This document shows positions 12,296 through 30,210 of a stretch of DNA of 34,049 nt, in pieces. The position numbers and the translations under genes were made by a program. Origin of the DNA: Candidatus Woesearchaeota archaeon (lineage in GTDB: Archaea > Nanobdellota > Nanobdellia > SCGC-AAA011-G17 > JAFCDX01); assembly GCA_018302265.1 (NCBI GenBank), contig JAGVZV010000029.1, positions 1 to 34,049 on the forward strand, given 5' to 3'. The first letter of the stretch is position 1; every line of letters begins with the position of its first letter. The notes beneath the pieces were generated by a model. That model did not search any database and was not told the origin of the DNA. It saw nothing but the letters and a program-made list of their open reading frames with translations.

Positions 12296-13345
12296 ATGAA
12301 AAAGAAGGGGTTAGTGATTCTAATATTTATAATTCTATTATTAATTTTAGTGATGTTAATAGTTGGATTTTTTACAGGAACTGCTGAAAGAAAAATAGTT
12401 GAAAATAATTCTAATGATAATGTTACATCTGTTGTTGAAAATGAGGAGAATATAACTACCCCAATAAAAGTTGAGCAAAAAGTAGAAATAAATAAAGATA
12501 TTGAAAAAATAGTTGAAGAATATAAGAAAAATCCAGATTTAAATTTAACTAAATCTATTGAAAGTTTGCCTAATATCAAAACTTCTAGCGGAGGGTATAA
12601 AATAGGGAGTAAATGGATTGAACAAACAGTTATAAGATTATTTGATGAACAAGAATTAGTAAGGGTTGATATTACTGGAGGTAATATAGATAATATTTTA
12701 TCTAGTTTAGGAAATGATTTTCAAGCCGAAGAAATAGCTAGAGATATCGGTGCTTTTAAAGGAAATATTACCAAAGATGGATTCATTAAATTATTAAACG
12801 ATCCTAATGTTGATGTAATAGAAATACCAAAAATAGTAAGTGCTCTACTTGATTATAGTATTTTATAGTATTCCATTAATAAATATAGATAAAATATCTG
12901 ATGATTTTAAAGGTGATGGACAAACTATTTGTTTAATAGATTCAGGAGTTGATAAAACCCATATGGCTTTATCTGGTAAAGTTATAGGAGAACATTGTTT
13001 TTGTAGTGAAAGAGATGGTTTATCTCCTCACTGTTGTCCAAATAATTCTACAGAACAAAATGGTGATGAAAGCGCATTAGATAATAATGGTCATGGAACA
13101 CATGTTGCGGGAATCATTGTTTCTGATGATATAAGTTATAGGGGAGTTGCTCCTAATTCAAAGATAGTTGCTGTTAAAATTTTAAATTCTACAGGAAAAA
13201 TATATCCATATGATATCTCATCTGCAATAAATTGGTGTGTTTCAAATAAAAATAAATATCATATTACAATAATTAGTTTGAGTCTTGGTGAAGGAGCTTA
13301 TACCAGTCAAAGCAATTGCGATCAGCAATCAGAAAGTTTAGCAGC
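12296..13345 (+). pseudogene. Subtilisin-like (S8) protease, frameshifted and 3'-truncated
   Basis: MKKKG-TM leader and prodomain. A 10-bp duplication TTATAGTATT (12853-12872) shifts the frame. IDSG and HGTHVAG are present; the GTSMA serine motif is absent. Confidence 0.85.
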
Positions 13346-13498
13346 ATCCAAGGAAATTGCAGATACATCCGCTCCAGAATCTAACAGAGCAACTGTCTCG
13401 AATCTTTCCTTTCCCTCCAGCAAAATAGGAATTGAAGGTGTCTTGACTGTTGATCCATCAGGTCTTTTAACACTTTTATATTTAAAAGAGACAGTCAT
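13322..13498 (-). pseudogene. Retropepsin-like aspartyl protease, N-terminal fragment (58 aa)
   Basis: MTVSFKYKSVKRPDG..TPSIPILL..VALLDSGADVSAI; starts 1 nt after the DUF5678-like gene. Confidence 0.75.
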
Positions 13499-13499
13499 T

Positions 13500-13694
13500 T
13501 TAGAAAATCATTGTTTCTTTATCAGGAACTCTTGTTAATAATGGTCTTTCATTAGGGCACTTTTCTTTAGCTTCTTGAAACACCTTCTTAATGCTGTTTC
13601 CATGAGAAATAATCTTCTGATTGCATATAGCTATCCATTGCCCGATATAACCGTCAAGGTCTGCTTTCATGAAAAACTGATAGTTCTTGTCCAT
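13500..13694 (-). CDS. DUF5678-like small protein
   Basis: YIGQWIAICNQKIISHG..KKVFQEAK..P pattern; GAGGT Shine-Dalgarno and GAAAGATTTATAAAG promoter upstream. Confidence 0.75.
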   Translation of the reverse strand: MDKNYQFFMKADLDGYIGQWIAICNQKIISHGNSIKKVFQEAKEKCPNERPLLTRVPDKETMIF

Positions 13695-14512: not shown

Positions 14513-15400
14513 TTAACTTCTCAAGAATGTGTCTACTGGAACAAAAATAGTCTGCACTATTTCCTGCGGCTGATTTGGATTGGAGTTTGTTTTATAGATA
14601 GAATATTCCTCTGAAAAACCCTCTTGCTCGTTTGTGTAAGCGTACTCTGTTGACAATAAATTATTTTCTTTTAATATCTGATAATCTGCTTTCCATATAT
14701 CCAGATTGTTTTGGTTATTCAAGAAAAAATTCTTGTAAATTATATGCGCTATCTCATGATAAATAACACGCACATCATTTGTTGCATTATAAATCAAGAT
14801 GTAATCGTACAAGGAATAATAAGCTCCAAGTATCTGTTTTTCCTCGTCTGTCAATGGCTGCTCGTCCTTGAAATAGAAAAATGGAATCCCTAATCTTGAA
14901 TAGTCCTCCTGATCATCAGCAACCTGCATAAAAAGGGGCTTCATACGCGCGTAAACCATCTCATTCTGGTATAAAACAAGAGTTCCGTGATACACTTCCT
15001 GTATTATTTTACTATCCCCTATGGTTTGTAATGATTTTACTAATTCAGTTAATTGAGCCTCCTTGTATTTGTTTTCTTCTTCTAATTTTTCAATTTCCTG
15101 GTTTGCATTTACAATAACATCCTCTTTTTTCTCTAATTCCTGCGCATAATTTGTTACTTGCTTATTTAAATTAGAAATTTGAGATTCTCTTTGTTTCAGG
15201 GTAAAATTAAGATAATTAATGTCTTGTATTGCATTGCTTAAACTCCCGGTTAAGTCACTTATGTGATAGTATGCGCTTTTAAGATCCTGGTTTTGCTGCA
15301 AGATTGCATCTCTCTTTAGCGTGTTATCATATATAAGATAGGTACTTAGTAGTACTAAAATTATGGTTATTGAAAAAAAGAAAAGATTTTTGTACCTCAT
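14513..15400 (-). CDS. Membrane-anchored coiled-coil Zn metallopeptidase (anthrax lethal factor/ATLF-like zincin)
   Basis: N-terminal TM, heptad-rich stalk, YHEIAH, and STEYAYTNEQEGFSE. Confidence 0.7.
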   Translation of the reverse strand: MRYKNLFFFSITIILVLLSTYLIYDNTLKRDAILQQNQDLKSAYYHISDLTGSLSNAIQDINYLNFTLKQRESQISNLNKQVTNYAQELEKKEDVIVNANQEIEKLEEENKYKEAQLTELVKSLQTIGDSKIIQEVYHGTLVLYQNEMVYARMKPLFMQVADDQEDYSRLGIPFFYFKDEQPLTDEEKQILGAYYSLYDYILIYNATNDVRVIYHEIAHIIYKNFFLNNQNNLDIWKADYQILKENNLLSTEYAYTNEQEGFSEEYSIYKTNSNPNQPQEIVQTIFVPVDTFLRS

Positions 15401-15522: not shown

Positions 15523-18500
15523 ATGGTCAAAGAAAAAACTCCAAAAACTCCACAATCCAAAACTAATGTAATTCCAGCAAGTGAGTCAGACAATAAACAA
15601 TGCTTGCAGTTATTCCCGTTTTATTTCTTACCAGCAAATAAAAATTTTGAAGAATTTGAAAATATATACGGCTCTCTTGGAGAACCTAAAAAGAAAGAAG
15701 TACTTACTCCACAAGATAAACATGATGCAGGCTTTGTTGAGACTGGAACAAAAAATAATCCGGCAAATCCTAGAGATTATAAATTTGGTGAAGCACTTGT
15801 ACCAGATGATAAATTAAAAGGAGAGCAACCCGGTCAAGGCGGTCATTTTTCTGAGGTTGATGATAGATACAATAAGAATAAAGAACCAGCACCAAATGCA
15901 CAAACAGCAAAGGGCAGTCCTTCAAGATTTAAAAAATGGGCAAAGAGAGCAGTAGTTGGATTAGCTGCAACAGCTTTAATTTCTACTGGAATAGGCTATT
16001 GCAGAGGGGAAAAAGTTTGTTACGATATAACCAATAAAAAAGTAGCAACAATGTGTTATGCTCAGCAAACTCCTGGCTTAAACAGGATAGATTTTATACA
16101 AAATTCTAATTTAATTAATAATCACAACCGAATGTATGCTGCAAAGAATGAGACATTGGATAAGAAATTTTTAGCCCAATTTAGTGAAGAGGAGAAAAAT
16201 TTATCTGCGATTCCAGTAAGTTACGAAGCACAAGATGTTCCAAAAGAAGCAGAACAAGTTAAGGAAACAACAGGATTCCCACAAGTAACTGGAAAAGTAG
16301 TAAAGAAAAAGGAAAAAATAACAACCTCGGGATATGCAGTAAGGCACCCAGGAATAGAAGAAATGGGATTGAGCCTGCATTTTGAAGGTGGAAAATTATA
16401 CTATCTGGTAAATTCAGATGTGCTTGAATTTTCAAAATCAGATGGAAGAGGCCTTGAAGCTATTGTTTATGCGCCAGATGAATTTAATCTTGCCCCATTA
16501 AAAGCAGAGTTTAATGAATGCGGTCTTTCATCCATAGATCTTGGAAAAGATGCAGGGAAATATCAATTAGCAGCAGTAGCACTAAAACAAGCTCCAACAA
16601 GCCCTGTCGATAGAGTTGAAGGTCAAGGTCTAATTATTGCATCTTCAAGATTTGACACTAACATTCAAGATAAGAATATACAAACTCAGCTTGAAAAAGG
16701 ATATGAATGCATAACTCCAAAAGACAAAGAGCAGCTAGAGGGTGTAATTGGAGAAGTTGCTGAGAATACAGCTCCAGCAATGTTTAATGCATTGGATATA
16801 AGAAAAGCTAAGATAGGAGAACCCTTTGAAGCATATGCCTTTGCAATAGATAAAGAGGATTCAGCAAGCATTGTTGTGAGGGGAATTCCAGGAAGAGATG
16901 ACAATAAAAAATATAATTTTGGAACAGAAAGTGCTGATGTTGATATAAACACAATACCTCCATTGGCTGAAATAGTAAGAGCAAATAAAGTGGTAGTAAG
17001 CTCATACAGAGTCATTTCAGAAAATCCAATAAAAGATGATTTTGTTACTGGATTGTGCGCGCTAGACCAGAATCACGAGGATATATCTGTAGAAAAACAG
17101 TGTTCGGATTATGCTGTTACCTTTGATAAAGAAGATGGAAAGGCAACTGTTAGCGTAGTTTCTGCTCAGGAGCAGGGGCCTGATGTTATTGCTAAAGAAA
17201 AAGTTTCTTCAGCAGCGCACGGGAAAAGAAGAGTACATTCAATATGGGATGCTTGGTCTCCATCACAAAGCAGAAGCACAATAACAGAAGAGACGATAAC
17301 TGAAGGTCAGCCTATAGGTCTTGAAGAAACAGTTGTAGTTGCTGGAACAGCAGCTAAAGCGCAGGAAGATGGGTTTGAGATGCAGCTTAGAAGAAGATTC
17401 CCATTGAGAAATCAAAATTACATTGATCTTGAAAAAGCAGTTAAGAATCCAGATGAGCTAAGGAGATTCTACATTCCAGAAGAGAACTATGGAAGAGGTT
17501 ATGTTGTGCATATGCTTAATGCAGACCAAAACCAGGATAAAAAGATTGTATTCACAAATTATTTTGAGGATGGAACATCTGTATCAAAATTATTAAAAAT
17601 AAACAGACATGGCAGTGTTAAGATTAAAAAGAGAATGCTTGAAGGGGCAGTTTCTACTATAGAAGATCCTGTCAGCCATGATTTACTGGCTGTCAAAAAC
17701 GTGGACGGAAAGCTGCAGGCCTATTACATTTATGATTCTTCCGAAACTGTAGTTCCATACGATACACTTGACGAAAATAAAGATGCATCAACGGAATTGC
17801 CAGAAGGGGATTATGGATTAAGGCCAAGCGCAGAGAGATTCATGCATGATAATTATATGGTAAAAGTAAGCCTTAATGGCGAAGAAAGAACTTCTAATGA
17901 AGATGAAGTTGAATTCAGCCTTAAGGGTGGGGATGAATTAAATATTAAAACAGAAGGGCATTCGCCTCCAGAAAGAGCATACTACAATGAGATAAAGATA
18001 AAAGTAGAGAAGAACAGAGAGGAAAAACAGACAGAAGAATCCAAAAAAACTCAGGAAGTTAAAGAGGATGCTCCTAAAGTTTCATTAAGCAGAGAAACCA
18101 GATTGCCAAAAGTAAGTTATGAAGCAGGGGTTTCATTAAGCGATAACAGCGGGAAGGTTGAATCTTCAGCATGGGAAAATGAATACCAAGAATCAGGATA
18201 CGAAGGGAATATTGATGTATCATACTTAATTAAGGATGCTTTAAGGCTTGGGATTACAACCAGGTTCGGGCAATCAGAATCAGACATAGACAATATTGGA
18301 GAGGCTGATACAACAACTCTTAGCATAGGCGGTTATGGAGATTTAAGATTGGATAAAAATCAAACCAATCTAAGATTGTTTGGACTGTATGACAGGACAA
18401 ATGAGAAATCAAAAATAGAATTATTGGGATCCAATATTGAACAGGATGCCATAACAGACAGAATGCTTGGGGATGTGCAGCTTGATGTTAATGGTCTTGG

Positions 18501-18981
18501 AATTGAAGCTCTTGGTTCATACAAATTATATTTACTGACGCAGGATAATCCAAGTGTTGATGAGCGCGGTGCTGATAGTGATGTAGTGCTTGCTCCATTC
18601 TTCAGATACGGTGATTCAGTAATACAAGCATACTTGCATCAATACGGAAGATACAGCATACAGCTTCAAGAGGAATTAAAGGGATTGTCAGCAGGTCTTG
18701 CTGGTGCATACACCCCAAAAAGCGACAGACTAAGCGGTTTTGCTTTTGCAGGATTCCCGGTGTCAGATGAGGACATGCAGGCTTATAATTTTGGAGCTGG
18801 ATTATCATTCAGGCCATTAAAAGATAAAAATTTCTATCTTAATTTAGCTGGAGAATTCGATCAAGAAACATATAACCAAGGCAGTGATGAAATAATGAAT
18901 CAGGGTTCATCTGTTGGGCTTAGCGTAAGCAACAGAAACTTGATTGATCTAAGGCCATATCTAACTAATCTATTACACTGA
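15523..18981 (+). CDS. Large membrane-anchored hypothetical protein with a predicted C-terminal beta-barrel
   Basis: RFKKWAKR plus a hydrophobic segment near aa 135-160; about 14 amphipathic beta-strands in the last ~290 aa; promoter GAAAGCTTTAAATA at ~15462. Confidence 0.75.
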   Translation: MVKEKTPKTPQSKTNVIPASESDNKQCLQLFPFYFLPANKNFEEFENIYGSLGEPKKKEVLTPQDKHDAGFVETGTKNNPANPRDYKFGEALVPDDKLKGEQPGQGGHFSEVDDRYNKNKEPAPNAQTAKGSPSRFKKWAKRAVVGLAATALISTGIGYCRGEKVCYDITNKKVATMCYAQQTPGLNRIDFIQNSNLINNHNRMYAAKNETLDKKFLAQFSEEEKNLSAIPVSYEAQDVPKEAEQVKETTGFPQVTGKVVKKKEKITTSGYAVRHPGIEEMGLSLHFEGGKLYYLVNSDVLEFSKSDGRGLEAIVYAPDEFNLAPLKAEFNECGLSSIDLGKDAGKYQLAAVALKQAPTSPVDRVEGQGLIIASSRFDTNIQDKNIQTQLEKGYECITPKDKEQLEGVIGEVAENTAPAMFNALDIRKAKIGEPFEAYAFAIDKEDSASIVVRGIPGRDDNKKYNFGTESADVDINTIPPLAEIVRANKVVVSSYRVISENPIKDDFVTGLCALDQNHEDISVEKQCSDYAVTFDKEDGKATVSVVSAQEQGPDVIAKEKVSSAAHGKRRVHSIWDAWSPSQSRSTITEETITEGQPIGLEETVVVAGTAAKAQEDGFEMQLRRRFPLRNQNYIDLEKAVKNPDELRRFYIPEENYGRGYVVHMLNADQNQDKKIVFTNYFEDGTSVSKLLKINRHGSVKIKKRMLEGAVSTIEDPVSHDLLAVKNVDGKLQAYYIYDSSETVVPYDTLDENKDASTELPEGDYGLRPSAERFMHDNYMVKVSLNGEERTSNEDEVEFSLKGGDELNIKTEGHSPPERAYYNEIKIKVEKNREEKQTEESKKTQEVKEDAPKVSLSRETRLPKVSYEAGVSLSDNSGKVESSAWENEYQESGYEGNIDVSYLIKDALRLGITTRFGQSESDIDNIGEADTTTLSIGGYGDLRLDKNQTNLRLFGLYDRTNEKSKIELLGSNIEQDAITDRMLGDVQLDVNGLGIEALGSYKLYLLTQDNPSVDERGADSDVVLAPFFRYGDSVIQAYLHQYGRYSIQLQEELKGLSAGLAGAYTPKSDRLSGFAFAGFPVSDEDMQAYNFGAGLSFRPLKDKNFYLNLAGEFDQETYNQGSDEIMNQGSSVGLSVSNRNLIDLRPYLTNLLH

Positions 18982-19005
18982 TCATAATTTATTGGGAAGG
19001 CAAAT

Positions 19006-21378
19006 ATGAAATTGAAAGGGGGGTTAGTCGGAATAGTAATATTTTTGATGTTTTTAGTAGTTCTGACTCCTGCATTCTCAGCTGTTTCTATTACAATAAG
19101 CCCGGCAAATCCGGATGACAGTAATGATTTAACCTGCTTGATGAATGGAAAAACAAGCGGATTTAATGCAAAGTGGAAGGGAAGCGGAGTGACCCAGCAG
19201 GGAATTATAGTAAACCCTCTGCCAGCGTCAAAGACGCAAATTGGAACAGCCAAGTGCGAAGCATGGGTTCCAAATCCATTGGGAAATCCTATTCTTGCTG
19301 GAAGCGCTTCTGCAACAGTAACTTCTGTAGATACTTGCGCAGGAAATCATGCTCCAACATTGAATATATCCAATCAAAGTGTTGATCAGACAAGTACATT
19401 AATCCTAAACTTAAGGGATTATTCTTCAGACCAGGATGGAAATGCACTTAATTATACTGTAAGAAACGAGAATATATCACAAGCTGACTGCTCAATATCC
19501 GGAAGAACGCTTACCATAACACCAGTTTCAAGCTTTAGCGGAATGGCTTCCTGCAGAATAAGAGCAACAGATACTTGCAATGCTTTTGCAGACAGCACAT
19601 TCAATATAAGTGTTAATTTCGTTGATACAACAAATCCAATTGTCAGTTTAATAGACCATATTACACTGGATGAGGATACAACTGCAACACTTGCACTTGA
19701 TGATTATGTTTCAGACAATAACCCTGATTCTACTCTAACATGGACAGTAACAGGGAATACAAATATTCAGATAACAATAGATCCAGTAACACACGTTGCT
19801 ACTTTTGTGCCTGCAGGAAACTGGTCAGGACAAGAGGATGTAACATTCACAGCTTATGATCCTTCTGGTAATTACGGACAGGATAATGTAAGAGTAATAG
19901 TTAATCCTGTTAATGATGCTCCTTGGATAGATCCTGTAATACCAGACCAAACTGCACAAGAGGATTCTGCACCATGGAGTCTTGATTTAAAAAATTATCA
20001 GCATGATGTTGAGTCAAGCACTTTAATATGGACAGTTTCAGGAGTTGATGCAAGTTTGTTAATTATAACAATAGACGCAAACAGCAATGCAATTTTCACT
20101 CTTGTTCCTAACAGAGACGGCAATGATACTGTTACATTTACGCTAAGCGATGGTCTTGCTTCAGTTTCACAGGATGTTTTAGTAACTGTGACCCCTATAA
20201 ATCACGCTCCTGTAATAATTGCATTCTCACCTGTGCTAAATGTTGTAATGAACGAGGGAAGCTCGCAATTATTTGCAATAACAGCATCTGATCTTGATAA
20301 TGATACTTTAGTATATGATTGGCTGCTTGATGGAGTTTCAGTTTCAAACACAAATGAATTTAATTATTCTGCTTTGAACGGACCTGAAACTCATACTTTA
20401 CTTGTAAATGTTTCTGATGGTTTGCTAAGTGCAAGTGTTACATGGACTATTAATATTTTAAATTTGCCTCCAACAATTAGTGCAGCAGCAGATATAGTGA
20501 ATGAATCACAGACAACAACTGTAACAGCAAATGCAAGTGATCCAGGAATAAATGATGCTTTAACATACTCATTTGATTTTAATAATGATGGGTCATTTGA
20601 AGTTCAGGATTCTGTTTCAAATATTGCAACTTACACATGGATGGATGACGGAATTTATCCTATAAGAATAATTGTGGATGATAATGATGGCGGTACTGCC
20701 AGTATAATAATAAATGCTGAGGTTCTTGATCTTGGACCAACAGCAGTAATAAATGCTCTTTTAACAGTAACTAATGAAGGAAGCCCATTAATCTTTGATG
20801 GAAATCTATCAACATCATACCCTGATACAATAGCATTATATGAATGGGACTGGAATTATGATGGAACATTCGCAGCAGAAGACACAGGATCTGATGCATC
20901 TCATATATGGATGGATAATGGAACTTATGTTGTAGGTTTAAGAGTAATTGATGAGGATGGCTCAATGAATATTGCTGCAATAAGCATAGATGTTCTTGAT
21001 CTTGGACCTGTTGCAGACTTTATATTTTCATCCAATAACAGTTTTGCAGAGCCAAGCACTGTTTCATTTATTGATACATCATTCTCATACCCTGACTTGA
21101 TAGTTTCATGGTCATGGGACTTTGATAATAATGGTGTAGAAGATTTAAATATACAGTTCCCAACACACGATTTCATACAGAATGGAACTTATCCTGTAAC
21201 TTTAATGGTAATTGATGAGGATGGCTCTAATAGTACAATAACAAGAGATGTTGTTATATATGATACTCACCCAGTTATAACTGATTTATCCGGTCCATTG
21301 AGTATTGTAGAAGGAAATGAAGCAACATTCAATTCTGCTGCAGCAAGTTCCAGAATGGAACTTATGAAGTTATTTTAA
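19006..21378 (+). CDS. Giant PKD/cadherin-like surface glycoprotein, 5' part
   Basis: Signal peptide, NHAP/VNDAP Ig/cadherin-like repeats and WDFDNNG PKD repeats; breaks mid-PKD at ~21350. Confidence 0.85.
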   Translation: MKLKGGLVGIVIFLMFLVVLTPAFSAVSITISPANPDDSNDLTCLMNGKTSGFNAKWKGSGVTQQGIIVNPLPASKTQIGTAKCEAWVPNPLGNPILAGSASATVTSVDTCAGNHAPTLNISNQSVDQTSTLILNLRDYSSDQDGNALNYTVRNENISQADCSISGRTLTITPVSSFSGMASCRIRATDTCNAFADSTFNISVNFVDTTNPIVSLIDHITLDEDTTATLALDDYVSDNNPDSTLTWTVTGNTNIQITIDPVTHVATFVPAGNWSGQEDVTFTAYDPSGNYGQDNVRVIVNPVNDAPWIDPVIPDQTAQEDSAPWSLDLKNYQHDVESSTLIWTVSGVDASLLIITIDANSNAIFTLVPNRDGNDTVTFTLSDGLASVSQDVLVTVTPINHAPVIIAFSPVLNVVMNEGSSQLFAITASDLDNDTLVYDWLLDGVSVSNTNEFNYSALNGPETHTLLVNVSDGLLSASVTWTINILNLPPTISAAADIVNESQTTTVTANASDPGINDALTYSFDFNNDGSFEVQDSVSNIATYTWMDDGIYPIRIIVDDNDGGTASIIINAEVLDLGPTAVINALLTVTNEGSPLIFDGNLSTSYPDTIALYEWDWNYDGTFAAEDTGSDASHIWMDNGTYVVGLRVIDEDGSMNIAAISIDVLDLGPVADFIFSSNNSFAEPSTVSFIDTSFSYPDLIVSWSWDFDNNGVEDLNIQFPTHDFIQNGTYPVTLMVIDEDGSNSTITRDVVIYDTHPVITDLSGPLSIVEGNEATFNSAAASSRMELMKLF

Positions 21379-24300
21379 CTATTTACGAAGCTGATGGAGA
21401 TTACAACACCTCTTCATGGAATATAACGGTCCAGGATACTGTTCCAGTTGCAATTGCAAGATCAGATTTCGTTTTTGTTAATGAAGGAATACCACTGCAA
21501 TTCTATGGAAACAGTTCAACAGCTTATGATGGAATTTTATCATACTCATGGAATTTCTCTGACGGAACTCCATTGGACACTTTAGACAATCCTGCACATA
21601 CATTTGTGCAAGATGGAATTTATGATGTTTATCTAACTGTAACTGACAATGATGGAAGCGTAAACACAACAAGATTAACAGTCGGTGTAATTGACATTAA
21701 CCCAATTGCAAACTTTTCATTCTTGCCAATAAATCCATTGGAAACAGAGCTGGTTGACTTTGCAGATTCATCTTATAGCTATGATGGTATAATCAATTGG
21801 TCTTGGAACTTTGGAGATGGAAATATAACGCAAGGGGTACAGAATCCAGCGCATAATTACAATTCCGGAAATTATAATATAACTTTAACAGTATTTGAAG
21901 CTGATGGAGATACAAGTTCAGTAACATATCCTATCAGAGTAAATGATACTGAACCAGTTGCAAATTTCATTTATGCACCAAACCCAGCAAATGAATGGGA
22001 TAATGTAACATTCACAAGCACAAGCACTTATCCGCACGATCAAATAGTCTCATGGCTGTGGAATTTTGGTGATGGTTCAACAGCAAGCGGAGAAATAGTA
22101 AATCACATTTATGCAAGCAATGGAACTTACAATGTTACACTTACAATAACAGATTCGGATGGAAGCGTTGATAGCATTGCACAAACCCTCGATGTACAAA
22201 ATGTTCCTGTTCAGGTAACACTGACAGCAAATCCATTAAATGGAAATGAGCCACTGAATGTTTCATTCACATGCACAGCAACAGGAAATGCTCCTTTCAC
22301 TTACTCATTTAATTTCTTGACAGGAAGCATAACAACAAACAGCTCAAGCTTTATTATAAATACAACTTACAATAACGGAACATACAATGCAACTTGCTCG
22401 GTAATTGATGCAGACGGAGATACGAATGTTAGTTCACAATTAATAAATGTAGATGATTTAGCTCCGCAGACAGCATTTTATTACAGTCCATTAAATCCAA
22501 TTGAAAATGAATCCATTAATTTCACAGATAATTCAACTTATGTAGTTGATCCTATCACTGATTGGTCATGGAATTTTGGTGATGGTAATGCAAGTGCATT
22601 GAGAAATCCAACACATAGCTATTTACAGAATGGAAATTATGCTGTAACTCTGACAACAACAGATGTTGACGGTTCAGTAAATTCAACTTCTCAGATAGTA
22701 GCTGTAGGAGATACAGTGCCAACAGTACTAATAGTTGCTCCAAGCACTGCAGTGGAGAATACAACTGTTACATTTACTGGATTTGGAGCAGGTTATGACA
22801 TACCGCTAAATTATTCATGGGACTTTGATGCAAACAATGGAATTACAGAGGAAGCTACAGGGCAGATTGCAACTAATAGATACCTGCAGAATGGAACTTA
22901 TATTGTTACTTTAACCATAACTGATAATGATGGGGATACAGCGAGTGCAACACACACTATTAATATAACTGATACAACCCCAATAGCAGTAGCACAAGCT
23001 AATCCGTATCCTTCTGTTGCAGAGGGTGTTTCAGTGCAGTTTGATGCAAGCAATTCAACTGGCTATGATCAGCCACTGACTTATTTATGGAATTTTGGAG
23101 ATAGTTCAACAAGCACTTTAGTAAGTCCAACCCATGTTTATACAGACCAAGGAAATTATGCTGTGATATTGACAGTAAGAGATAATGATGGGTCAACAAA
23201 TACAGCTATTCTGAATCTGGCTGTAGCAGATGCAGTTCCAGTAGCAGACTTTACTTTTGTTCCAGTAAATCCAAATGAGGGAAGCCTAGTTCAGTTTAAT
23301 GATTTATCAACGCCTGGTTATGATGGTATTGTGTCCTGGTTCTGGGATTTTGGTGATGGAAGCAATAGTACTTTACAAAATCCAGCACACACTTACGTGG
23401 ATAATGGAGTCTATACAATAATCCTGACTGTTAATGATTCAGACGGTTCAGTTGCAAGTGATACAACTCCGATACAAGTTAATAATGTCAATCCAATTGC
23501 TAATGCAAATGGCCCTTACGCATGCGGCTTAGGAAGTTCTGTATCTTTGAATGGAAGTGTATCAGATCCTGGAAATGATACTCTCACTTTTGCTTGGGAT
23601 TTAGACAATAACGGGGTTTACGAAACAAGTGGGCAGAATGTAACATATAGTTGTTTAGTAGAAGGAGTGCATGATATTGCTTTACAGGTTACAGATGATG
23701 ATTTGGGTGCTGATACTGACAATACAAATGTAACTGTTTATAACATTGTAATAAATGAATTTGAATCTAATAACGGTATTAATAATTCAGAATGGATAGA
23801 AGTATTTAATCCATCAACAAGTATAATCAATTTAAATAATTGGTATATTCAAGATAGAAGTGGAAATGGGTTTAATCTTACAGGAATATTAAATCCAAAT
23901 AATTATACAATAATTTCTATGTCAAATAGATTAGATAATGGTGGTGAGGACTTAGCATTATATGCTTATGGAATTATCATTGACAATGTAAATTATAATT
24001 TAGCAGATGATGGAAGTATTCCTAATAATTGTTGGGCAAGAGTTCCAAATGGTGTAGACACAAATACAATGGCAGATTGGATATTCCAATTATGTACAAG
24101 AGGAGCAACCAATAATTTAGTAGTAAACACTGCACCAACTTTAGCGATATTACCAGACCAGAATTATTTACAAGATTCTGGATCCCATGATAATGTTATT
24201 GACATATGGGCTTACGCTAGTGATGCACAAGATGCAGATAGTGTAATGACTTATTCCATTATTTCAGAAACAAACACAGCAGTTGTTGATTGTTTAATTG

Positions 24301-26342
24301 ATTTAAACAGGTACATTAATTGTAGTGTACAAGCTGGAATGATTGGATTCTCAGATGTTACAGTAAGAGTAACAGATACTGGATTACTAACAGCTGATGA
24401 TACATTCAGAGTAAATGTTAATCCACTTGGATTGCCTCAGTGCTCAGACGGCGTTGATAATGACGGAGATTTGTTAACCGATGCAAATGATGCAGGATGT
24501 TATAATGGAGTTGGGATATATGATCCTAGCGACAATGATGAATTAAATAATGGAGCATTCCAGTGCAATGATGGACTGGATAATGATGGAGATACATTTG
24601 TGGATTGGAATTATGATGCACAATGTTCAAGCCCAATCGATAATAGCGAAGCTCCTATAACAGCACAATGTTCAGACGGAATTGATAATGATGGTGATGG
24701 AGATATTGATTATCCTAATGATCCTGGCTGTGTTGATACTTCAGACAATGATGAAACAGACCCAGTACCAATGCCATTGTGCTCTGATGGATTGGATAAT
24801 GACGGAGATCTTTTGATAGATTATCTTTCAGATCCTGGATGTACAAGCGCTTCTGATAATGATGAAACTAATGTTGTGATAACACAATGCAATGATGGAA
24901 TTGATAATGACGGAGATTTGTTAACCGATGCAAATGATGCAGGATGTTACACTAGCGGAGTTTACGATCCAAATGATGTTAGTGAAGTAAATACATTACC
25001 CCAATGTTCAGACTTTTTTGATAATGATGCTGATACATTTACAGATTATCCAACAGATATAGGCTGTTTAAATGCAGTTGATAATGATGAATCAAATCCA
25101 TTGCAAACAATAATAAATTCATTTATCTACGGAACTTATTACCCCCTTAATTTTGAATGGCAGGTAGTCGAAGTTCCTGTAATAAGCTCTACAATAAAAG
25201 ATTCTAGCATTATGGGAATCACAGCAAATTTCATAACAAATTCAAACATAACTGGAAGTTCATTAACCCTTGTTGCTGGTGCTGGTGAAACACCAAACGT
25301 AAATAATTGTGTATTAATTGATTCTACTTACACTTATTATGATTGTGTTGATGTTTACATAGACCCATCAGATATATTTATGAGTAATGTTGGTGGATCA
25401 ACAATTACAGACTCGCATATATGGTATTCAATATCAACAAATTCAGATATTTCCAATAGCACAATTGATAATTCTACTGTTACAGGGAGCACAATTAATA
25501 ATGCTACAATTAATTATGCTGTCATAAATAGTAATATAATTAGTTCTGGAACAATAACTATCAATGGAAGATACTATAATGCAACTGAAAGGGGTTCAAT
25601 GAATATCAATAGAATAGCTAATAATATCGTACCTGTTGCAAATGCTGGTTCTGACCAGAGTGTATCAACAGGAGCTACAGTTACTTTAAATGCAGGTTCA
25701 AGTTCTGATGCAAACAGTGATAGTTTAACCTACAGATGGGTGCAAAATTTAGGAATAAACGTTACTATAAATAATCAAAACACTGCGGTTGCAACATTTA
25801 ATACTTCTTTGGATGGAATATATACATTTAAGTTGGTTGTTGATGACGGAATAACAAACAATTCAGATTCGGTTACAATAACTGCTTCAACACCATGCAC
25901 AAATTGCGGTGGCGGAGGCGGTGGCGGAGGTGGAAGCCCTGGAGAATTAATATGTTCAGTAGAATTATTCAATTGCACAGAGTGGAGCAATTGTAATCCA
26001 GATGGAACAATGACAAGAGCATGTGTGCCAAATAGAAAATGTATCTGGGGAACTAAACCACAAACAAATGGTACATGCACTTATTACCCAAAAGAAACAA
26101 CTCCGGTGGTTGTAAATGAAACTGAAGAACCAGCAGAAACTCCTGTGGGAGCAGTTACATATAACTTAGGACCGATTATACTGACAAAAGACCAGTTATT
26201 ATACGGCGGGATTGGATTAGGAATAATTTTGCTTATGCTGATTGGATTAATTGTTTATAAACTAACAAGACCAAAAATAATAGAACACACCAGTCCGGTT
26301 AATCCAGTAGCAAAAGACTTTGTTAAAAAGAGAAAGAGGTAA
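21351..26342 (+). CDS. Giant surface glycoprotein, 3' part (PKD repeats, lamin-tail-like domain, QCSDGxDNDGD repeats, Ser/Ile-rich solenoid, poly-Gly, C-terminal TM)
   Basis: The frame is open with PKD sequence from 21351 (QNGTYEVILTIYEADGD), before the TTG 21573 call. Many WNFGDG motifs, IVINEFES..EWIEVFN, and a TM followed by KKRKR. Confidence 0.88.
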   Translation, partial: QNGTYEVILTIYEADGDYNTSSWNITVQDTVPVAIARSDFVFVNEGIPLQFYGNSSTAYDGILSYSWNFSDGTPLDTLDNPAHTFVQDGIYDVYLTVTDNDGSVNTTRLTVGVIDINPIANFSFLPINPLETELVDFADSSYSYDGIINWSWNFGDGNITQGVQNPAHNYNSGNYNITLTVFEADGDTSSVTYPIRVNDTEPVANFIYAPNPANEWDNVTFTSTSTYPHDQIVSWLWNFGDGSTASGEIVNHIYASNGTYNVTLTITDSDGSVDSIAQTLDVQNVPVQVTLTANPLNGNEPLNVSFTCTATGNAPFTYSFNFLTGSITTNSSSFIINTTYNNGTYNATCSVIDADGDTNVSSQLINVDDLAPQTAFYYSPLNPIENESINFTDNSTYVVDPITDWSWNFGDGNASALRNPTHSYLQNGNYAVTLTTTDVDGSVNSTSQIVAVGDTVPTVLIVAPSTAVENTTVTFTGFGAGYDIPLNYSWDFDANNGITEEATGQIATNRYLQNGTYIVTLTITDNDGDTASATHTINITDTTPIAVAQANPYPSVAEGVSVQFDASNSTGYDQPLTYLWNFGDSSTSTLVSPTHVYTDQGNYAVILTVRDNDGSTNTAILNLAVADAVPVADFTFVPVNPNEGSLVQFNDLSTPGYDGIVSWFWDFGDGSNSTLQNPAHTYVDNGVYTIILTVNDSDGSVASDTTPIQVNNVNPIANANGPYACGLGSSVSLNGSVSDPGNDTLTFAWDLDNNGVYETSGQNVTYSCLVEGVHDIALQVTDDDLGADTDNTNVTVYNIVINEFESNNGINNSEWIEVFNPSTSIINLNNWYIQDRSGNGFNLTGILNPNNYTIISMSNRLDNGGEDLALYAYGIIIDNVNYNLADDGSIPNNCWARVPNGVDTNTMADWIFQLCTRGATNNLVVNTAPTLAILPDQNYLQDSGSHDNVIDIWAYASDAQDADSVMTYSIISETNTAVVDCLIDLNRYINCSVQAGMIGFSDVTVRVTDTGLLTADDTFRVNVNPLGLPQCSDGVDNDGDLLTDANDAGCYNGVGIYDPSDNDELNNGAFQCNDGLDNDGDTFVDWNYDAQCSSPIDNSEAPITAQCSDGIDNDGDGDIDYPNDPGCVDTSDNDETDPVPMPLCSDGLDNDGDLLIDYLSDPGCTSASDNDETNVVITQCNDGIDNDGDLLTDANDAGCYTSGVYDPNDVSEVNTLPQCSDFFDNDADTFTDYPTDIGCLNAVDNDESNPLQTIINSFIYGTYYPLNFEWQVVEVPVISSTIKDSSIMGITANFITNSNITGSSLTLVAGAGETPNVNNCVLIDSTYTYYDCVDVYIDPSDIFMSNVGGSTITDSHIWYSISTNSDISNSTIDNSTVTGSTINNATINYAVINSNIISSGTITINGRYYNATERGSMNINRIANNIVPVANAGSDQSVSTGATVTLNAGSSSDANSDSLTYRWVQNLGINVTINNQNTAVATFNTSLDGIYTFKLVVDDGITNNSDSVTITASTPCTNCGGGGGGGGGSPGELICSVELFNCTEWSNCNPDGTMTRACVPNRKCIWGTKPQTNGTCTYYPKETTPVVVNETEEPAETPVGAVTYNLGPIILTKDQLLYGGIGLGIILLMLIGLIVYKLTRPKIIEHTSPVNPVAKDFVKKRKR

Positions 26343-29300: not shown

Positions 29301-29411
29301 TTTGGCGGAACAGACTGCGATGATGATAATAATGCTATTAACCCCAGTATAACAGAAGTATGTGATGGCATAGATAATAACTGTGATACGCAGATAGATG
29401 AAGGGTGTTAA
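26352..29411 (+). CDS. Secreted DUF2341-like/PKD protein with a C-terminal MopE-related metal-binding motif
   Basis: Signal peptide, LISEGKMMPDCSDI..YKIYYGN, four PKD repeats, and DCDDDNNAINP..EVCDGIDNNCD..DEGC. Confidence 0.85.
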   Translation: MKQIFKLFLFFIFTVLLTNFVYAVWDVDIPYSGGISINTNDLLNENYTISVTLDTFTLISEGKMMPDCSDIYVVYDELIELDRTVYYCNTDYSKIEFMLKEFIPKNTVENAHYKIYYGNLTHQAESDKNKIYLLWDDFDDGDLNLSKWQIIDAGFSESGTTLNVPSGNPKRMKSVNIFGLNKTLIANVSFTNTGVDQQVVGFDCANTCHIQGGQNIVIFHDFGDPSFLYGLQTSWIATGSYGLYSRTAFNGQVYNNNYNLYQIDRASNSAKFYINNISFGEISSNLPRIETPIGISTSNYPFTVDSVLVKEYVDNAPVVDIIVPIIIANFSYEPVSPYEKEAVHFIDTSISTYDIINYQWTFGDTGTSTNRNPYHIYNTQGNYDVTLTIRDVNGTESSLTLPLTILDSVPTVSAGQDQIVSEGELVNFNGIGSGNDQPLSYSWNFGDGEIGTGQSVSHLYAQDGVYIVTLIATDSDGSQDSDNLLVIAEDTNPNIFVASDTNFIQENMAVQFYSTGSNAYDSPLSYSWSFGDLLTSNEENPIHIFTQNGIYIVILTITDSDGSTNSTNLTIIVTDTVPMADAGIDRTAVVDRLVQFDASNSTGYDRPLTYFWDFGDDGTIDSTGVTASNTYTASGIYTIKLLVMDSDLDTAQDIITIDVIENSPPIVSDIPDFGFDENTVYNLNLDDYVLDQEDPDSELVWTVTGNTNIQITIDPLTHVAAFIPTPYWVGSEIVTFSVCDPGILCNQDGLEVTVNHVNIAPEAWIVSPTDGNSFVQDTIINFFGVGMDLEDGNLTGSSLKWASDIDGLLGYGESINIQTLTIGTHVITLNVSDSNGSSDTYSISIEIIPEQINKEIQVFIDGNNLLNATFEGYRYGADYMGILTHYSPESTAKFFSWSLYFPASNIALNMNYSSGICSISNMTIFETRYDWTEPRITNYLMGDEYVSGVCDLDMANQILSISTSEANPVTNVDRDTDGFTKEMFGGTDCDDDNNAINPSITEVCDGIDNNCDTQIDEGC

Positions 29412-29512
29412 AAAGAGAAAAAAGTAAAAACAAAAGCTTTATATACCAGTGTTACTATAAAATAGTAAAATAAAAACGATAAATATATATACTATCCATT
29501 TAGTTTAAAAAC

Positions 29513-30208
29513 ATGAAAAATAAAATATTATTCGGATTGTTATCAATTTTGCTAGTTATTCCTTTTGTTTTAGCTTTGCAGGGAGATTATGATGGAAGTG
29601 AGTCTTACGGTGTTCCTGATATAGATGGGATGAAAGCGATGATAGAAGGGCGTGAAACATGTAATGTTGGATTAATGGATATGAATGATGATGGTTTATG
29701 CACAGAAGTGGATCTTTGGGCTATAATGGCTAATGTTGTAGGATGTGTTGATAATGATGATGATAATTATTATACTTGTGAAAATACTGGGGGGGGTTAT
29801 AATGGATTAAAAGACCTTAATGATAATGATCCTTTGGTAAATCCTGGTGCAGATGAAATATGTGGAAATGCTGTTGATGAAGATCAAGATGGTGTTTTAG
29901 ATAATGGCTGTGGAACTTTCTCTGGAATAGTTTATAGTACATTTGATTGGATTACTCCATTGGGTGGAGCAACAGTAAGCTTGTATGATCCTTTAACAGA
30001 TAAAACTTATTTATCTACTCCTTCAGGAGTGGATGGTAGTTTTACATTTAAGTTGCCAGAAGGATTAAATTATGAGTTTAATGTAATTCTTGTAGGGTAC
30101 ATTTATCCTAGCACAACATATCCATTTGCAATAGTAGATCAACCAGTTGTTATAACCGATGGTGGTACAAATAATGAGATTGTATTTATGGAGGAAGAAG
30201 TTGTATAA
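29513..30208 (+). CDS. Secreted protein with dockerin-like, MopE-related and carboxypeptidase-regulatory-like modules
   Basis: GDYDGS..PD and DMNDDG..EVD Ca-loop pair, VNPGADEICGNAVDED, GATVSL..DGSFTF. Confidence 0.7.
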   Translation: MKNKILFGLLSILLVIPFVLALQGDYDGSESYGVPDIDGMKAMIEGRETCNVGLMDMNDDGLCTEVDLWAIMANVVGCVDNDDDNYYTCENTGGGYNGLKDLNDNDPLVNPGADEICGNAVDEDQDGVLDNGCGTFSGIVYSTFDWITPLGGATVSLYDPLTDKTYLSTPSGVDGSFTFKLPEGLNYEFNVILVGYIYPSTTYPFAIVDQPVVITDGGTNNEIVFMEEEVV

Positions 30209-30210
30209 TC

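What the first reader, a model, noticed from the sequence alone, without database searches (positions are those of the whole stretch)
18106..18981. Outer-membrane-style beta-barrel at the tip of a membrane-anchored archaeal protein
Seen: the last ~290 aa of the 1152-aa ORF parse into about 14 alternating-hydrophobic strands (VSYEAGVSL, YEGNIDVSY, LRLGITTRF, LSIGGYGDL, LRLFGLYDR, MLGDVQLDV, IEALGSYKL, VVLAPFFRY, IQAYLHQY, LSAGLAGAY, LSGFAFAGF, YNFGAGLSF, FYLNLAGEF, SVGLSVS). Short turns alternate with long polar loops, and many strands end in an aromatic residue. Known: this is the pattern of autotransporter and porin barrels, which belong to diderm bacteria and organelles. Unusual: there is no cleavable signal and no terminal Phe beta-signal, but there is an internal N-in anchor after RFKKWAKR. 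Inference: a tethered pore that inserts into a host membrane or a second membrane.
Basis: partly seen in the sequence, partly recalled or inferred. Interest (0 to 1): 0.85.

Follow-up and report, generated by a model that had tools for sequence, protein, structure and literature searches.

The report
Outer-membrane-style barrel on archaeal surface protein
A tiny, probably symbiotic archaeon has a surface protein that ends in a barrel of the kind found in bacterial outer membranes, and this barrel is predicted to dock the tip of the giant adhesin encoded next to it, which may be how such archaea grip other cells.

Summary
The last ~290 aa of the 1152-aa ORF (15523-18981) form about 14 amphipathic strands, with long and short connections alternating, behind an N-proximal membrane anchor. 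The gene is genuinely archaeal: it sits in conserved synteny in Nanoarchaeia (DPANN) genomes. Only six relatives were found, and all share the architecture.

The barrel reading rests on several indirect lines:
- Pfam Autotransporter scores near threshold (21.7-25.7 bits here; 28.1, above cut-off, in a homolog).
- Protein-language-model neighbours are autotransporter beta-domains for two members that are 16% identical.
- One strand face is almost free of charges in all six members.
- An ESMFold2 co-fold places the N-terminal domain of the downstream giant PKD adhesin on the crown of long loops (ipSAE 0.66, best control 0.02).

The pairing of a barrel-tailed protein with this adhesin recurs in other families of the order. 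No Omp85/BamA was found in 240 genomes.

Most likely this is an OMP-type barrel that docks the adhesin tip and sits in a foreign membrane, possibly that of a bacterial host. Membrane insertion is inferred only.

The parts
15523..18981 (+). Whole gene, 1152 aa: polar N-terminus, one hydrophobic anchor, long extracellular region, charged linker, C-terminal beta-barrel-like domain, short tail
   Evidence: Syntenic orthologs in G006, G007 and G001
15523..15951 (+). N-terminal polar, Lys-rich region (aa 1-143). Its length varies between homologs (about 27 to 140 aa). Presumed cytoplasmic
   Evidence: alignment A1. Topology is inferred from the basic residues before the anchor
15952..16002 (+). Hydrophobic segment aa 144-160, read as a signal-anchor (N-in). 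A homologous segment is present in all 5 full-length relatives seen
   Evidence: KD 1.66; 5 K/R in the 12 residues before; for the relatives. No predictor was run
16003..17889 (+). Extracellular 'passenger' region (aa 161-789). It matches no Pfam, NCBIfam or PDB family, but has blocks conserved with P0002 and P0003
17890..18105 (+). Glu/Lys-rich linker (aa 790-861). The relatives have N/S/Q/K/T/P low-complexity linkers at the same place
   Evidence: 15 E and 10 K in 72 aa
18106..18936 (+). Beta-barrel-like domain (aa 862-1138), about 14 amphipathic strands with alternating long loops and short turns
18937..18981 (+). C-terminal tail (aa 1139-1152 plus the stop) with a conserved Pro. It ends in Leu-His in 4 of 6 members, and a fifth has the same Leu-His four residues before its end. 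This is the most constrained part in the one close pair (dN/dS 0.14, only 13 codons)
   Evidence: It is the only ORF of 150 aa or more in this genome that ends in LH
18988..26342 (+). Downstream giant adhesin: signal peptide, conserved N-terminal domain, PKD/Big_9/cadherin-like repeats, C-terminal membrane anchor. It is read here in two overlapping frames (18988-21378 and 21321-26342), so a frameshift lies within 21321-21378
19084..19350 (+). N-terminal domain of the adhesin (aa 27-115), predicted to dock on the long-loop end of the barrel
   Evidence: alignment A5; co-fold; the domain recurs in the order

Best explanation
The last ~290 residues fold into a closed, 12-14-stranded beta-barrel of the bacterial outer-membrane type, closest to the autotransporter beta-domain. 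Its apolar face points outward and its polar face lines the lumen. The barrel sits at the far end of a fast-evolving surface protein of a Nanoarchaeia (DPANN) archaeon.

The protein is held in the archaeal membrane by an N-proximal signal-anchor. It reaches outward through about 650 aa of unknown fold and a flexible charged linker. The crown of long loops on the barrel is the docking site for the N-terminal tip domain of the giant PKD-repeat adhesin encoded immediately downstream, so the two genes form one attachment module.

These genomes have no Omp85/BamA, and the barrel's belt is apolar. I therefore infer that the barrel is embedded in a lipid membrane other than the archaeon's own cytoplasmic membrane. 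The most likely candidate is the (outer) membrane of a bacterial host or prey, where the barrel would act as a self-supplied anchor or receptor for the adhesin, and possibly as a pore.

Shown by computation: the sequence pattern, the family, the synteny, the near-threshold family matches and the predicted docking. Inferred: the closed fold, the outward apolar belt, membrane insertion and the identity of the target membrane.
For: (1) The gene is real and archaeal. Proteasome beta, FttA/aCPSF1 and the archaeal CCA enzyme lie 4-9 kb upstream. FttA is 79% identical to that of G006, where an ortholog occupies the same position on a 536-kb contig. dN/dS between the G006 and G007 copies of the domain is 0.41.

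(2) Pfam PF03797 (cut-off 26 bits). This protein scores 21.7 bits whole, 24.6 as the domain alone and 25.7 in six frames. Homolog P0002 scores 28.1, above the cut-off. In all, 3 of 6 members match at E<=1. Among 401 genomes of the class, only this gene matched PF03797 at E<=1e-3, so low-GC composition does not produce such hits.

(3) ESM Atlas features. For this domain, 26 of 30 nearest clusters are autotransporter beta-domains (score 0.95). For P0004, which is 16% identical and has no Pfam hit, the figure is 24 of 30 (score 0.93).

(4) Strand faces. The apolar face has 2 of 82 charged residues here and 21 of 407 in the five relatives. The other face has 20 of 68 and 88 of 337. Mean hydropathy is +1.10 against -1.06. 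Conserved aromatic columns lie near both strand ends.

(5) Co-fold by ESMFold2 with the adhesin N-domain. ipSAE was 0.56, 0.66 and 0.68 in three runs (median 0.66); the best of 3 controls was 0.02. This mark was reached by 58 of 80 solved complexes and 2 of 110 mismatched pairs; the counts hold only roughly because my own alignments were used. The partner's pLDDT was 85-86 and the barrel chain's 86-87. The runs share at least 83% of their contacts. Every barrel contact lies on six of the seven loops on the long-loop end (S1-S2, S3-S4, S5-S6, S7-S8, S9-S10, S13-S14). None lies on the short turns or the tail. Contacts inside strands have the parity of the polar face (with numbering).

(6) Module conservation. 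The adhesin follows directly, with overlapping or nearly abutting stop and start, in G000, G001, G006 and G007. Its N-domain matches the ORF downstream of a PF13505-type barrel-tailed protein in another family (hhalign probability 97.7, E 1.5e-12). The domain occurs in 43 of 240 genomes of the order. In 26 further loci, 17 have an abutting upstream ORF, and 11 of these end in F, W or Y.

(7) No Omp85 at E<=1e-3 in 0 of 240 genomes of the order, of which 107 are at least 90% complete.

(8) Hints of a bacterial target. Homolog P0003 carries an NlpC/P60 murein endopeptidase domain in its passenger (E 8e-29). SLT lytic transglycosylase domains are present above cut-off in 8 of 8 genomes of the family. 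Peptidoglycan hydrolases are reported as prominent in Nanoarchaeota (PMC12352652, passages). A predatory lifestyle has been proposed for Woesearchaeota (PMC9723730, passages).
Against: This protein's own PF03797 score is below Pfam's cut-off. All matches cover only about positions 8-108 of the 255-position profile.

A profile of the family finds nothing in the PDB sequences or in the E. coli K-12 chromosome at E<=10.

hhalign against nine E. coli autotransporter barrels scores 24.2. That is far above column shuffles (12.4 +/- 1.7) but barely above shuffles of 12-column blocks (16.3 +/- 2.9, maximum 23.7). The signal is therefore mostly generic strand-hairpin likeness.

Atlas scores of 0.93-0.95 are reached by 1 to 10 in 100 shuffled proteins, and the method was not calibrated for parts of proteins.

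I never saw coordinates. A two-sheet beta-sandwich would also give one apolar face per strand, and its alternate loops could gather at one end.

There is no terminal aromatic beta-signal in 5 of 6 members and no known insertion machinery.

Long loops are not more variable than strands in the one close pair (dN/dS 0.45 against 0.38).

NlpC/P60 is absent from the 8 genomes of the family, and the organism of P0003 is unknown.

Only 3 of 14 abutting upstream tails scanned in other families give a Pfam OMP_b-brl hit, and those are weak (16.8-18 bits). These tails show no detectable relation to this barrel.

The adhesin N-domain occurs in tandem copies in some genomes, so it may be a general Ig-like repeat rather than a dedicated docking module.
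Confidence: 0.5

Rival explanations
1. A soluble beta-rich tip domain, such as a two-sheet sandwich or lectin-like fold, that merely resembles outer-membrane barrels in sequence pattern. It binds the adhesin tip or a host surface molecule and never enters a membrane.
For: One apolar face per strand is also what a sandwich core needs. Profile matches are partial and near or below threshold. The hhalign signal is mostly generic. There is no BamA and no terminal aromatic. The co-fold shows a protein-binding surface.
Against: No lectin, ConA-like or other sandwich family appeared in Pfam at E<=1. The Atlas neighbours are 26 of 30 and 24 of 30 autotransporter barrels. The strands are 9-15 residues long, with Gly or Ala at about a fifth of the positions on both faces and aromatic columns at both ends. 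In the co-fold, in-strand contacts on S5, S6, S7 and S13 all have the polar-face parity, which fits a partner sitting over a lumen rather than on one sheet.
Confidence: 0.22
2. The barrel sits in an outer layer or second membrane of the archaeon itself, and the rest of the protein spans the space to the cytoplasmic membrane. It would serve as an anchor or portal for the giant adhesin. From recall, this resembles the way the N-terminal retention module of LapA-type adhesins plugs its outer-membrane channel, or the way TpsB handles the N-terminal domain of TpsA.
For: The protein has an anchor at one end and a barrel at the other. The barrel is predicted to bind the N-terminal domain of the co-transcribed adhesin. 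The gene order, barrel first and adhesin second, is conserved.
Against: No Omp85 in 240 genomes of the order. I recall no report of a double membrane in Nanoarchaeia, and none turned up in my searches. The adhesin has its own C-terminal membrane anchor.
Confidence: 0.15
3. A bacterial autotransporter gene present through mis-binning or chimeric assembly, and not an archaeal gene at all.
For: One PF13505 hit in the order lies on a contig with 67% GC that looks bacterial, so contamination does occur in these genomes.
Against: Archaeal housekeeping genes lie on the same contig. Orthologs sit in the same position next to FttA on a 536-kb contig of another genus. GC (0.37) and GC3 (0.25) match the neighbouring genes. 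Contamination of G000 is 0.29%.
Confidence: 0.02

Closest known systems
Type Va (classical) autotransporters, Pfam PF03797 beta-domain
   Same: A large N-terminal passenger, a linker and a C-terminal beta-domain of about 280 aa. This is the only Pfam family matched. The nearest language-model neighbours are of this family. NCBI already names homolog P0002 'autotransporter domain-containing protein'.
   Different: Archaeal host with no Omp85/BamA. An N-proximal signal-anchor follows 27-140 polar residues, in place of a cleaved Sec signal. The linker is low-complexity or charged; the pore-filling alpha-helix is recalled, not tested. I count about 14 strands by sequence, against 12 (recalled). 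A 14-aa tail ends in Leu-His rather than in a terminal aromatic. The match covers only the first ~100 profile positions. The loops are predicted to bind a second protein.
Small outer-membrane barrels of the OMP_b-brl type (Pfam PF13505; OmpA, OmpX and Opa-like)
   Same: Weak match here (E 0.018-0.043). Relatives of this type occur in 25 of 240 genomes of the same archaeal order, 7 of them above cut-off (one is a contaminant). Examples include a signal-peptide protein ending in Phe on a 382-kb archaeal contig, and a barrel-tailed protein upstream of the same adhesin N-domain.
   Different: No detectable sequence relation between those tails and this domain. This domain is longer and lacks the terminal aromatic.
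Intimin-Tir attachment of enteropathogenic E. coli (recalled, functional analogy only)
   Same: The attacker supplies its own membrane-embedded receptor, to which its own surface adhesin then binds. Here the barrel would be the receptor and the PKD adhesin tip the ligand.
   Different: No sequence or fold relation. Tir is helical and is injected by a type III system. Here the receptor would be a beta-barrel that stays tethered to the producer. Entirely untested.
PopA of Bdellovibrio, a predator's porin-like protein
   Same: [quoted passage not shown] That paper also mentions a possible distant relative in DPANN Altiarchaeales.
   Different: PopA is a pentameric lipid-trapping assembly made by a diderm bacterium that has BAM. 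No similarity to PopA was tested here.
Two-partner secretion (TpsB/TpsA) and LapA-LapE type retention of giant adhesins (recalled)
   Same: A barrel gene lies next to a giant repeat adhesin whose N-terminal domain engages the barrel.
   Different: TpsB belongs to Omp85, which was not found. LapE is TolC-like. Both act in the producer's own outer membrane.

Membership tests
Type Va autotransporter | C-terminal domain matches PF03797 above Pfam's gathering score (26 bits) | tested here: inconclusive
   This protein scores 21.7, 24.6 and 25.7 bits, all below the cut-off. Homolog P0002 scores 28.1 bits, above it. Of the 6 members, 3 match at E<=1. Only profile positions ~8-108 of 255 are covered.
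Type Va autotransporter | 12-stranded closed barrel with the linker (alpha-helix) inside the pore | not testable with these tools
By sequence I count about 14 strands. The linker is Glu/Lys-rich here and low-complexity in the relatives.
Type Va autotransporter | Cleavable N-terminal Sec signal peptide | tested here: not met
   The hydrophobic segment lies at aa 144-160, after a 143-aa polar region. In the relatives it starts at about aa 29-117. This was read from the sequence; no predictor was run.
Type Va autotransporter / outer-membrane barrels in general | C-terminal beta-signal ending in an aromatic residue | tested here: not met
   Four of 6 members end in Leu-His, one in Gln and one in Tyr. 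In every member a tail follows the last strand (about 14 aa in this protein).
Outer-membrane barrels in general | Omp85/BamA insertase in the producing organism | tested here: not met
   PF01103: 0 of 240 genomes of the order at E<=1e-3. None in G000, which is 82% complete. One hit of 16.5 bits, below the cut-off, in G004. The controls matched in 7 of 14 named genomes.
Outer-membrane barrels in general | Even number of amphipathic strands, short turns on one end and long loops on the other, an apolar outward belt, aromatic girdles | tested here: inconclusive
   The strand pattern, the connection lengths and the charge-free face are met at the sequence level in all 6 members. Closure and an inward polar face are inferred from the contact list of the co-fold. 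No coordinates were seen.
Two-partner secretion transporter (TpsB) | Omp85-family barrel with POTRA domains | tested here: not met
   No PF01103 match in the protein or the genome.
Soluble lectin or sandwich domains (LamG, ConA-like and similar) | Match to a profile of such a family | tested here: not met
   None at E<=1 in Pfam for the six domains. None in NCBIfam or PDB.

The most novel reading that the evidence does not exclude
An order of DPANN archaea that has no BAM machinery deploys bacterial-type outer-membrane barrels as self-supplied anchors. The barrel is planted in the outer membrane of a diderm bacterial host, either spontaneously or by using the host's own insertase. It stays tied to the archaeon through its passenger, and the archaeon's giant adhesin then locks onto its loop crown. 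This would be an inter-domain counterpart of intimin-Tir, and it could double as the conduit through which the archaeon draws metabolites.
Probability: 0.2. Interest if true: 0.92.

Novelty: new variant of a known kind. Interest (0 to 1): 0.72.

Why it matters
Beta-barrel outer-membrane proteins are treated as a hallmark of diderm bacteria and their organelle descendants. How DPANN archaea attach to and feed on partner cells is largely unknown.

A conserved two-gene module in BAM-less Nanoarchaeia, made of a barrel-tipped anchor and a giant adhesin predicted to dock on it, gives a concrete and testable molecular handle on that attachment. Together with the murein hydrolases of these genomes, it bears on whether some DPANN archaea have bacterial rather than archaeal hosts. 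It would also be a natural case of an outer-membrane-type barrel that must fold without its usual insertase.

My six literature searches found no paper that describes such a barrel in Nanoarchaeia. The nearest items were a putative AT-1 family protein in a Nitrosocosmicus genomic island (PMC13245735, passages) and a possible PopA relative in Altiarchaeales (PMC12228718, passage). Supplementary tables were closed and could hold more.

Tried and rejected
The ESM Atlas holds no model of P0001 or P0004.

Search for relatives.
- The word-based search with the whole protein (region 850-1152) found nothing.
- The exhaustive phmmer search over 1.84 billion representatives found only P0002 and P0003.
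- Profile A3 found only P0004 and P0005 among longer proteins, and nothing among proteins of 160-534 aa at E<=1.
With A4 it found no relative in genome contigs or metagenome contigs.

Links to known barrels.
- PDB by sequence and by profile gave nothing for the barrel. For the whole-protein profile, the only hits came from the NlpC/P60 domain of P0003.
- The A3 profile found nothing on the E. coli K-12 chromosome.
- hhalign against E. coli autotransporter barrels was only marginally above block-shuffled controls.

Links between barrel types. The G004/G003-type tail and the family-f4 tails could not be linked to A3. The f4 profile found nothing meaningful in the PDB.

The alternating-9-mer count proved unspecific, because SecY scores as high.

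Expression. No RNA holder was listed, and read laying was not used.

A wider sample of bacterial autotransporters through 'of: W01' was not accepted and was not pursued.

Considered and rejected:
- A PGF-CTERM or archaeosortase-type sorting signal. The tail is not hydrophobic.
- A degenerate NlpC/P60 domain in P0001. There is no Pfam hit and no catalytic Cys where A1 aligns it.
- Recent horizontal transfer. GC and GC3 match the neighbouring genes.

Full report
OBSERVATION. The window holds an ORF at 15523..18981 (+) of 1152 aa. The finding's span, 18106-18981, is aa 862-1152 plus the stop codon. An automatic scan for 9-mers with an alternating apolar register recovered 8 of them. With 14 strands placed, the connections measure 20, 3, 17, 6, 18, 2, 16, 4, 6, 6, 7, 5 and 14 residues, so long loops alternate with short turns as described. 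The protein ends in His. Its one strongly hydrophobic 17-mer is aa 144-160 (Kyte-Doolittle 1.66; next best elsewhere 0.82), with five K/R in the twelve residues before it.

The alternation exceeds chance: 8 alternating 9-mers against 2.9 +/- 1.5 in 200 shuffles, maximum 7. The count is not specific, however. Among 460 six-frame ORFs of this genome the domain is one of 15 with 8 or more. By a stricter rule it ties for second, and SecY tops both lists.

ORGANISM AND REALITY OF THE GENE. The window is archaeal. It encodes a proteasome beta subunit, FttA/aCPSF1 and the archaeal CCA-adding enzyme at 6.4-11.1 kb. The genome is 589 kb in 44 contigs, 82% complete, with 0.29% contamination. NCBI labels the relatives 'Candidatus Nanoarchaeia archaeon'. 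In G006, a different genus of the same family, a 1004-aa ortholog sits on a 536-kb contig in the same neighbourhood. FttA there is 79% identical (498 of 634), and the downstream giant adhesin is homologous. GC (0.374) and GC3 (0.25) match the neighbouring genes. Between the two species of one genus, G006 and G007, the domain is 79% identical with dN/dS 0.41. This is therefore a selected chromosomal gene, not a contaminant. It also evolves fast: 16% identity between G000 and G006, where FttA keeps 79%.

THE FAMILY. It is very small. An exhaustive phmmer search of 1.84 billion representatives found two proteins, P0002 (1136 aa, E 1.8e-29) and P0003 (1315 aa, E 1.6e-20). A profile search of 240 genomes of the order found four genomes, all in the window's own family: G000, G001, G006 and G007, that is 4 of the 8 genomes of that family. 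In the five full-length members (N-terminus of the G001 copy not fetched), the plan is:
- a polar N-terminus of variable length;
- one hydrophobic segment after basic residues;
- a long region without known domains;
- a low-complexity or charged linker;
- the beta-domain of about 280 aa;
- a short tail with a conserved Pro.
The tail ends in Leu-His in four of six members. P0003 alone carries a clear NlpC/P60 murein endopeptidase domain in its passenger (E 8e-29; PDB hits to Spr/MepS). The organism of P0003 is unknown.

LIKENESS TO OUTER-MEMBRANE BARRELS. Pfam's Autotransporter beta-domain (PF03797, cut-off 26 bits) is the best and almost the only match. This protein scores 21.7 bits whole, 24.6 as the domain alone and 25.7 in the six-frame genome search. 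P0002 scores 28.1 bits, above the cut-off, and NCBI names it 'autotransporter domain-containing protein'. Three of six members match at E<=1. Only profile positions ~8-108 of 255 are covered.

The match is not a composition artefact of low-GC archaea. Among 401 genomes of the class, this gene was the only PF03797 match at E<=1e-3. Independently, the ESM Atlas feature search returned autotransporter clusters as 26 of 30 neighbours for this domain (score 0.95). For P0004, which has no Pfam hit and is 16% identical, it returned 24 of 30 (score 0.93).

Against membership: the family profile finds nothing in the PDB sequences or on the E. coli K-12 chromosome. hhalign against nine E. coli autotransporter barrels scores 24.2. 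Column shuffles give 12.4 +/- 1.7 and the reversed alignment 14.9. Shuffles of 12-column blocks give 16.3 +/- 2.9 with a maximum of 23.7. The likeness is thus largely that of strand-hairpin units, and the order-specific signal is modest. I conclude that it works like, and probably folds like, an outer-membrane barrel. Membership in the autotransporter family is not established.

STRAND FACES. I assigned an 'out' and an 'in' register to the 14 strands from this sequence and transferred it through alignment A3. The five other members then show 21 of 407 charged residues on the out face against 88 of 337 on the in face. Mean hydropathy is +1.10 against -1.06. The Fisher p of 4e-16 overstates the case because the rows are relatives. 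Conserved aromatic columns lie near both ends of the out face. Gly or Ala fills about a fifth of the positions on both faces. One face per strand is therefore almost free of charges throughout the family. On its own, this fits either a membrane belt or a sandwich core.

THE CO-FOLD. Stand-alone structure prediction was off, but the one complex job was open. I asked whether the barrel domain (alignment A3) binds the conserved N-terminal domain of the downstream adhesin (residues 27-115, alignment A5). The tool's verdict was that the model supports binding and does not show it.
- ipSAE was 0.56, 0.66 and 0.68 in three runs (median 0.66). The best of three controls was 0.02.
- The mark was reached by 58 of 80 solved complexes and 2 of 110 mismatched pairs. 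These counts hold only roughly because my own alignments were used.
- The partner's pLDDT was 85-86 and the barrel chain's 86-87. The runs share at least 83% of their contacts.
- No solved complex resembling this pair turned up in my PDB sequence searches, so a pass from memory seems unlikely, though I cannot exclude it.

The contact list is informative about the fold. All barrel contacts fall on domain residues 16-27, 59-67, 100-115, 144-151, 185-188 and 258-265. These are six of the seven loops I had placed on the long-loop end. No contact falls on the six short turns or the tail. The first and the last hairpin loops touch the same 89-residue partner, which is what a closed barrel predicts. 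The in-strand contacts (100, 102, 104; 111, 113, 115; 144, 146; 258, 260) all have the parity of the polar face. The partner therefore sits over a polar lumen and the apolar face points outward. This last step is my inference from the contact list, not an observed structure.

THE MODULE RECURS. In G000, G001, G006 and G007 the adhesin gene follows the barrel gene directly, with overlapping or nearly abutting stop and start. The adhesin has a signal peptide, PKD/Big_9/cadherin-like repeats and a C-terminal membrane anchor. Its N-terminal domain also heads the ORF just downstream of a different barrel-tailed protein in G081, a member of another family. That protein has a signal peptide, scores 27.6 bits on PF13505 and ends in Phe. 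The hhalign probability for the N-domain match is 97.7, with E 1.5e-12 over 103 columns.

A profile of the domain matches 43 of 240 genomes of the order, mostly in three families. In some proteins it occurs in tandem copies. In the 26 further loci I examined, 22 had an upstream ORF on the same strand. Of these, 17 abut the adhesin-like gene (gap -28 to +34 nt), and 11 of the 17 end in F, W or Y.

Pfam is much less convinced. Of 14 such tails scanned, 3 gave weak OMP_b-brl hits (16.8-18 bits) and 11 gave none. L060, the one other abutting upstream ORF I scanned, gave no barrel-family hit, and the five non-abutting ORFs were unrelated enzymes or gave no match. Thirteen of the family-f4 tails form one BLAST cluster. 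That cluster has no detectable relation to this barrel or to any PDB chain.

In G004 and G003, both in the window's own family, a third kind of beta-rich tail precedes a PKD protein. Its matches are sub-threshold: OMP_b-brl 17.9 bits and Omp85 16.5 bits.

PF13505 itself matches 25 of 240 genomes of the order, 7 of them above the cut-off. One of the seven is an obvious high-GC contaminant. Another match (28.2 bits, just under the 28.7-bit cut-off) lies on a 382-kb contig between aIF2-alpha, SRP54, FtsY and TruD and is flanked by PKD proteins.

NO INSERTASE, AND HINTS OF A BACTERIAL TARGET. Omp85/BamA (PF01103) was not found at E<=1e-3 in any of 240 genomes of the order, 107 of which are at least 90% complete. 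The same search matched 7 of 14 control genomes. SLT lytic transglycosylase domains are present above cut-off in 8 of 8 genomes of the family. NlpC/P60 is present in 0 of 8, although P0003 has it. In print, peptidoglycan hydrolases are 'particularly prominent' in Nanoarchaeota (PMC12352652, passages seen). A predatory lifestyle on bacteria was proposed for Woesearchaeota from lytic transglycosylase and haemolysin-like genes (PMC9723730, passages seen). [quoted passage not shown]

HOW IT MOST LIKELY WORKS. The protein is made with its N-terminus in the cytoplasm and held by the signal-anchor. The passenger and the flexible linker carry the barrel away from the cell. The barrel has an apolar belt and no home in a BAM-less, presumably single-membraned cell. 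It is therefore taken up by another lipid membrane, most plausibly that of a partner cell and perhaps a diderm bacterium. The tip of the very long adhesin, whose other end is anchored in the archaeal membrane, then locks onto the barrel's loop crown. If the linker runs through the lumen as in autotransporters (recalled), the loops would face the archaeon, as this model needs.

The steps shown by computation are the architecture, the family, the synteny, the near-threshold matches, the conserved faces, the predicted docking and the absence of Omp85. The inferred steps are closure, belt orientation, membrane insertion, the target and any pore function. My estimates are about 0.8 for an OMP-like closed barrel, about 0.6 for docking of the adhesin tip, about 0.5 for residence in a membrane and about 0.3 for a host membrane.

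RIVALS. The first is a soluble sandwich-like tip domain that only binds the adhesin (0.22). The second is a barrel in an outer layer of the archaeon itself, serving as anchor or portal for the adhesin as in LapA-LapE or TpsB-TpsA (both recalled) (0.15). The third, contamination, is refuted by the synteny.

LIMITS. I saw no coordinates and ran no membrane-topology predictor. Supplementary files of papers were closed and may hold relevant annotation tables. Claims of absence refer to the genomes searched, not to the clades.

Noticed in passing
window 21321-21378: The downstream adhesin is read in two overlapping open frames (18988-21378 and 21321-26342). The PKD repeat continues across the junction in the second frame, so a frameshift, real or an assembly error, splits one gene of roughly 2400 aa. 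The G006, G007 and G001 homologs are single frames of 2093-2775 aa.
   Followed up: partly
G174:C1:131528-132049 (L038, L041): A 195-aa protein with a signal peptide, a near-threshold OMP_b-brl match (28.2 bits; cut-off 28.7) and a C-terminus ending in Phe. It lies on a 382-kb archaeal contig (aIF2-alpha, SRP54, FtsY and TruD nearby), between PKD proteins. PF13505 matches 25 of 240 genomes of this order, while Omp85 matches none.
   Followed up: partly
G004:C7 (L028:1335-3191) and G003:C2 (L030): A second kind of protein in the same family: signal peptide, passenger, Pro/Glu/Lys linker and beta-rich tail. In G004 (the G003 neighbourhood was not examined) it abuts a PKD adhesin. Only sub-threshold OMP_b-brl (17.9 bits) and Omp85 (16.5 bits) matches. 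No detectable relation to the window's barrel.
   Followed up: partly
protein P0003 (aa 787-898): One of the six family members carries an NlpC/P60 murein endopeptidase domain (E 8e-29) and an acidic double-disulfide repeat in its passenger. It comes from a 9.7-kb contig of unknown organism.
   Followed up: partly
G000:C29:5715-6119 and seven related genomes: SLT lytic murein transglycosylase domains above Pfam's cut-off in all 8 genomes of this archaeal family, whose members should have no murein of their own.
   Followed up: no
G118:C24 (L033): A contig with 67% GC carrying an OmpW-like protein and a GMC oxidoreductase, inside a low-GC Nanoarchaeia genome rated 100% complete. It looks like bacterial contamination of that bin.
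   Followed up: no
window 14513-15400 (-): The divergently transcribed neighbour encodes a 295-aa protein with an N-terminal membrane anchor, a coiled-coil stretch (only weak coiled-coil Pfam hits) and, read by eye, a His-Glu-x-x-His motif near the C-terminus. It may be a membrane-tethered metalloprotease.
   Followed up: no
window 26352-30975: Three more secreted proteins follow the adhesin: a 1019-aa PKD/DUF2341 protein and two proteins of about 240 aa. All carry the MopE-type Cys/Asp-rich metal-binding motif, so the barrel gene heads a surface-protein cluster of about 15 kb.
   Followed up: no
window 12840-13538 (+): A 232-aa ORF with a GTG start matches only the first 129 of 288 positions of the subtilase (Peptidase_S8) profile. 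It may be a truncated or split protease gene, and it overlaps the ORF at 12296-12868.
   Followed up: no
window 1206-2426 (-) and 2933-4147 (+): Two divergently oriented paralogous AAA_14/DUF4143 ATPase genes in the most AT-rich part of the window (GC 0.26-0.31).
   Followed up: no
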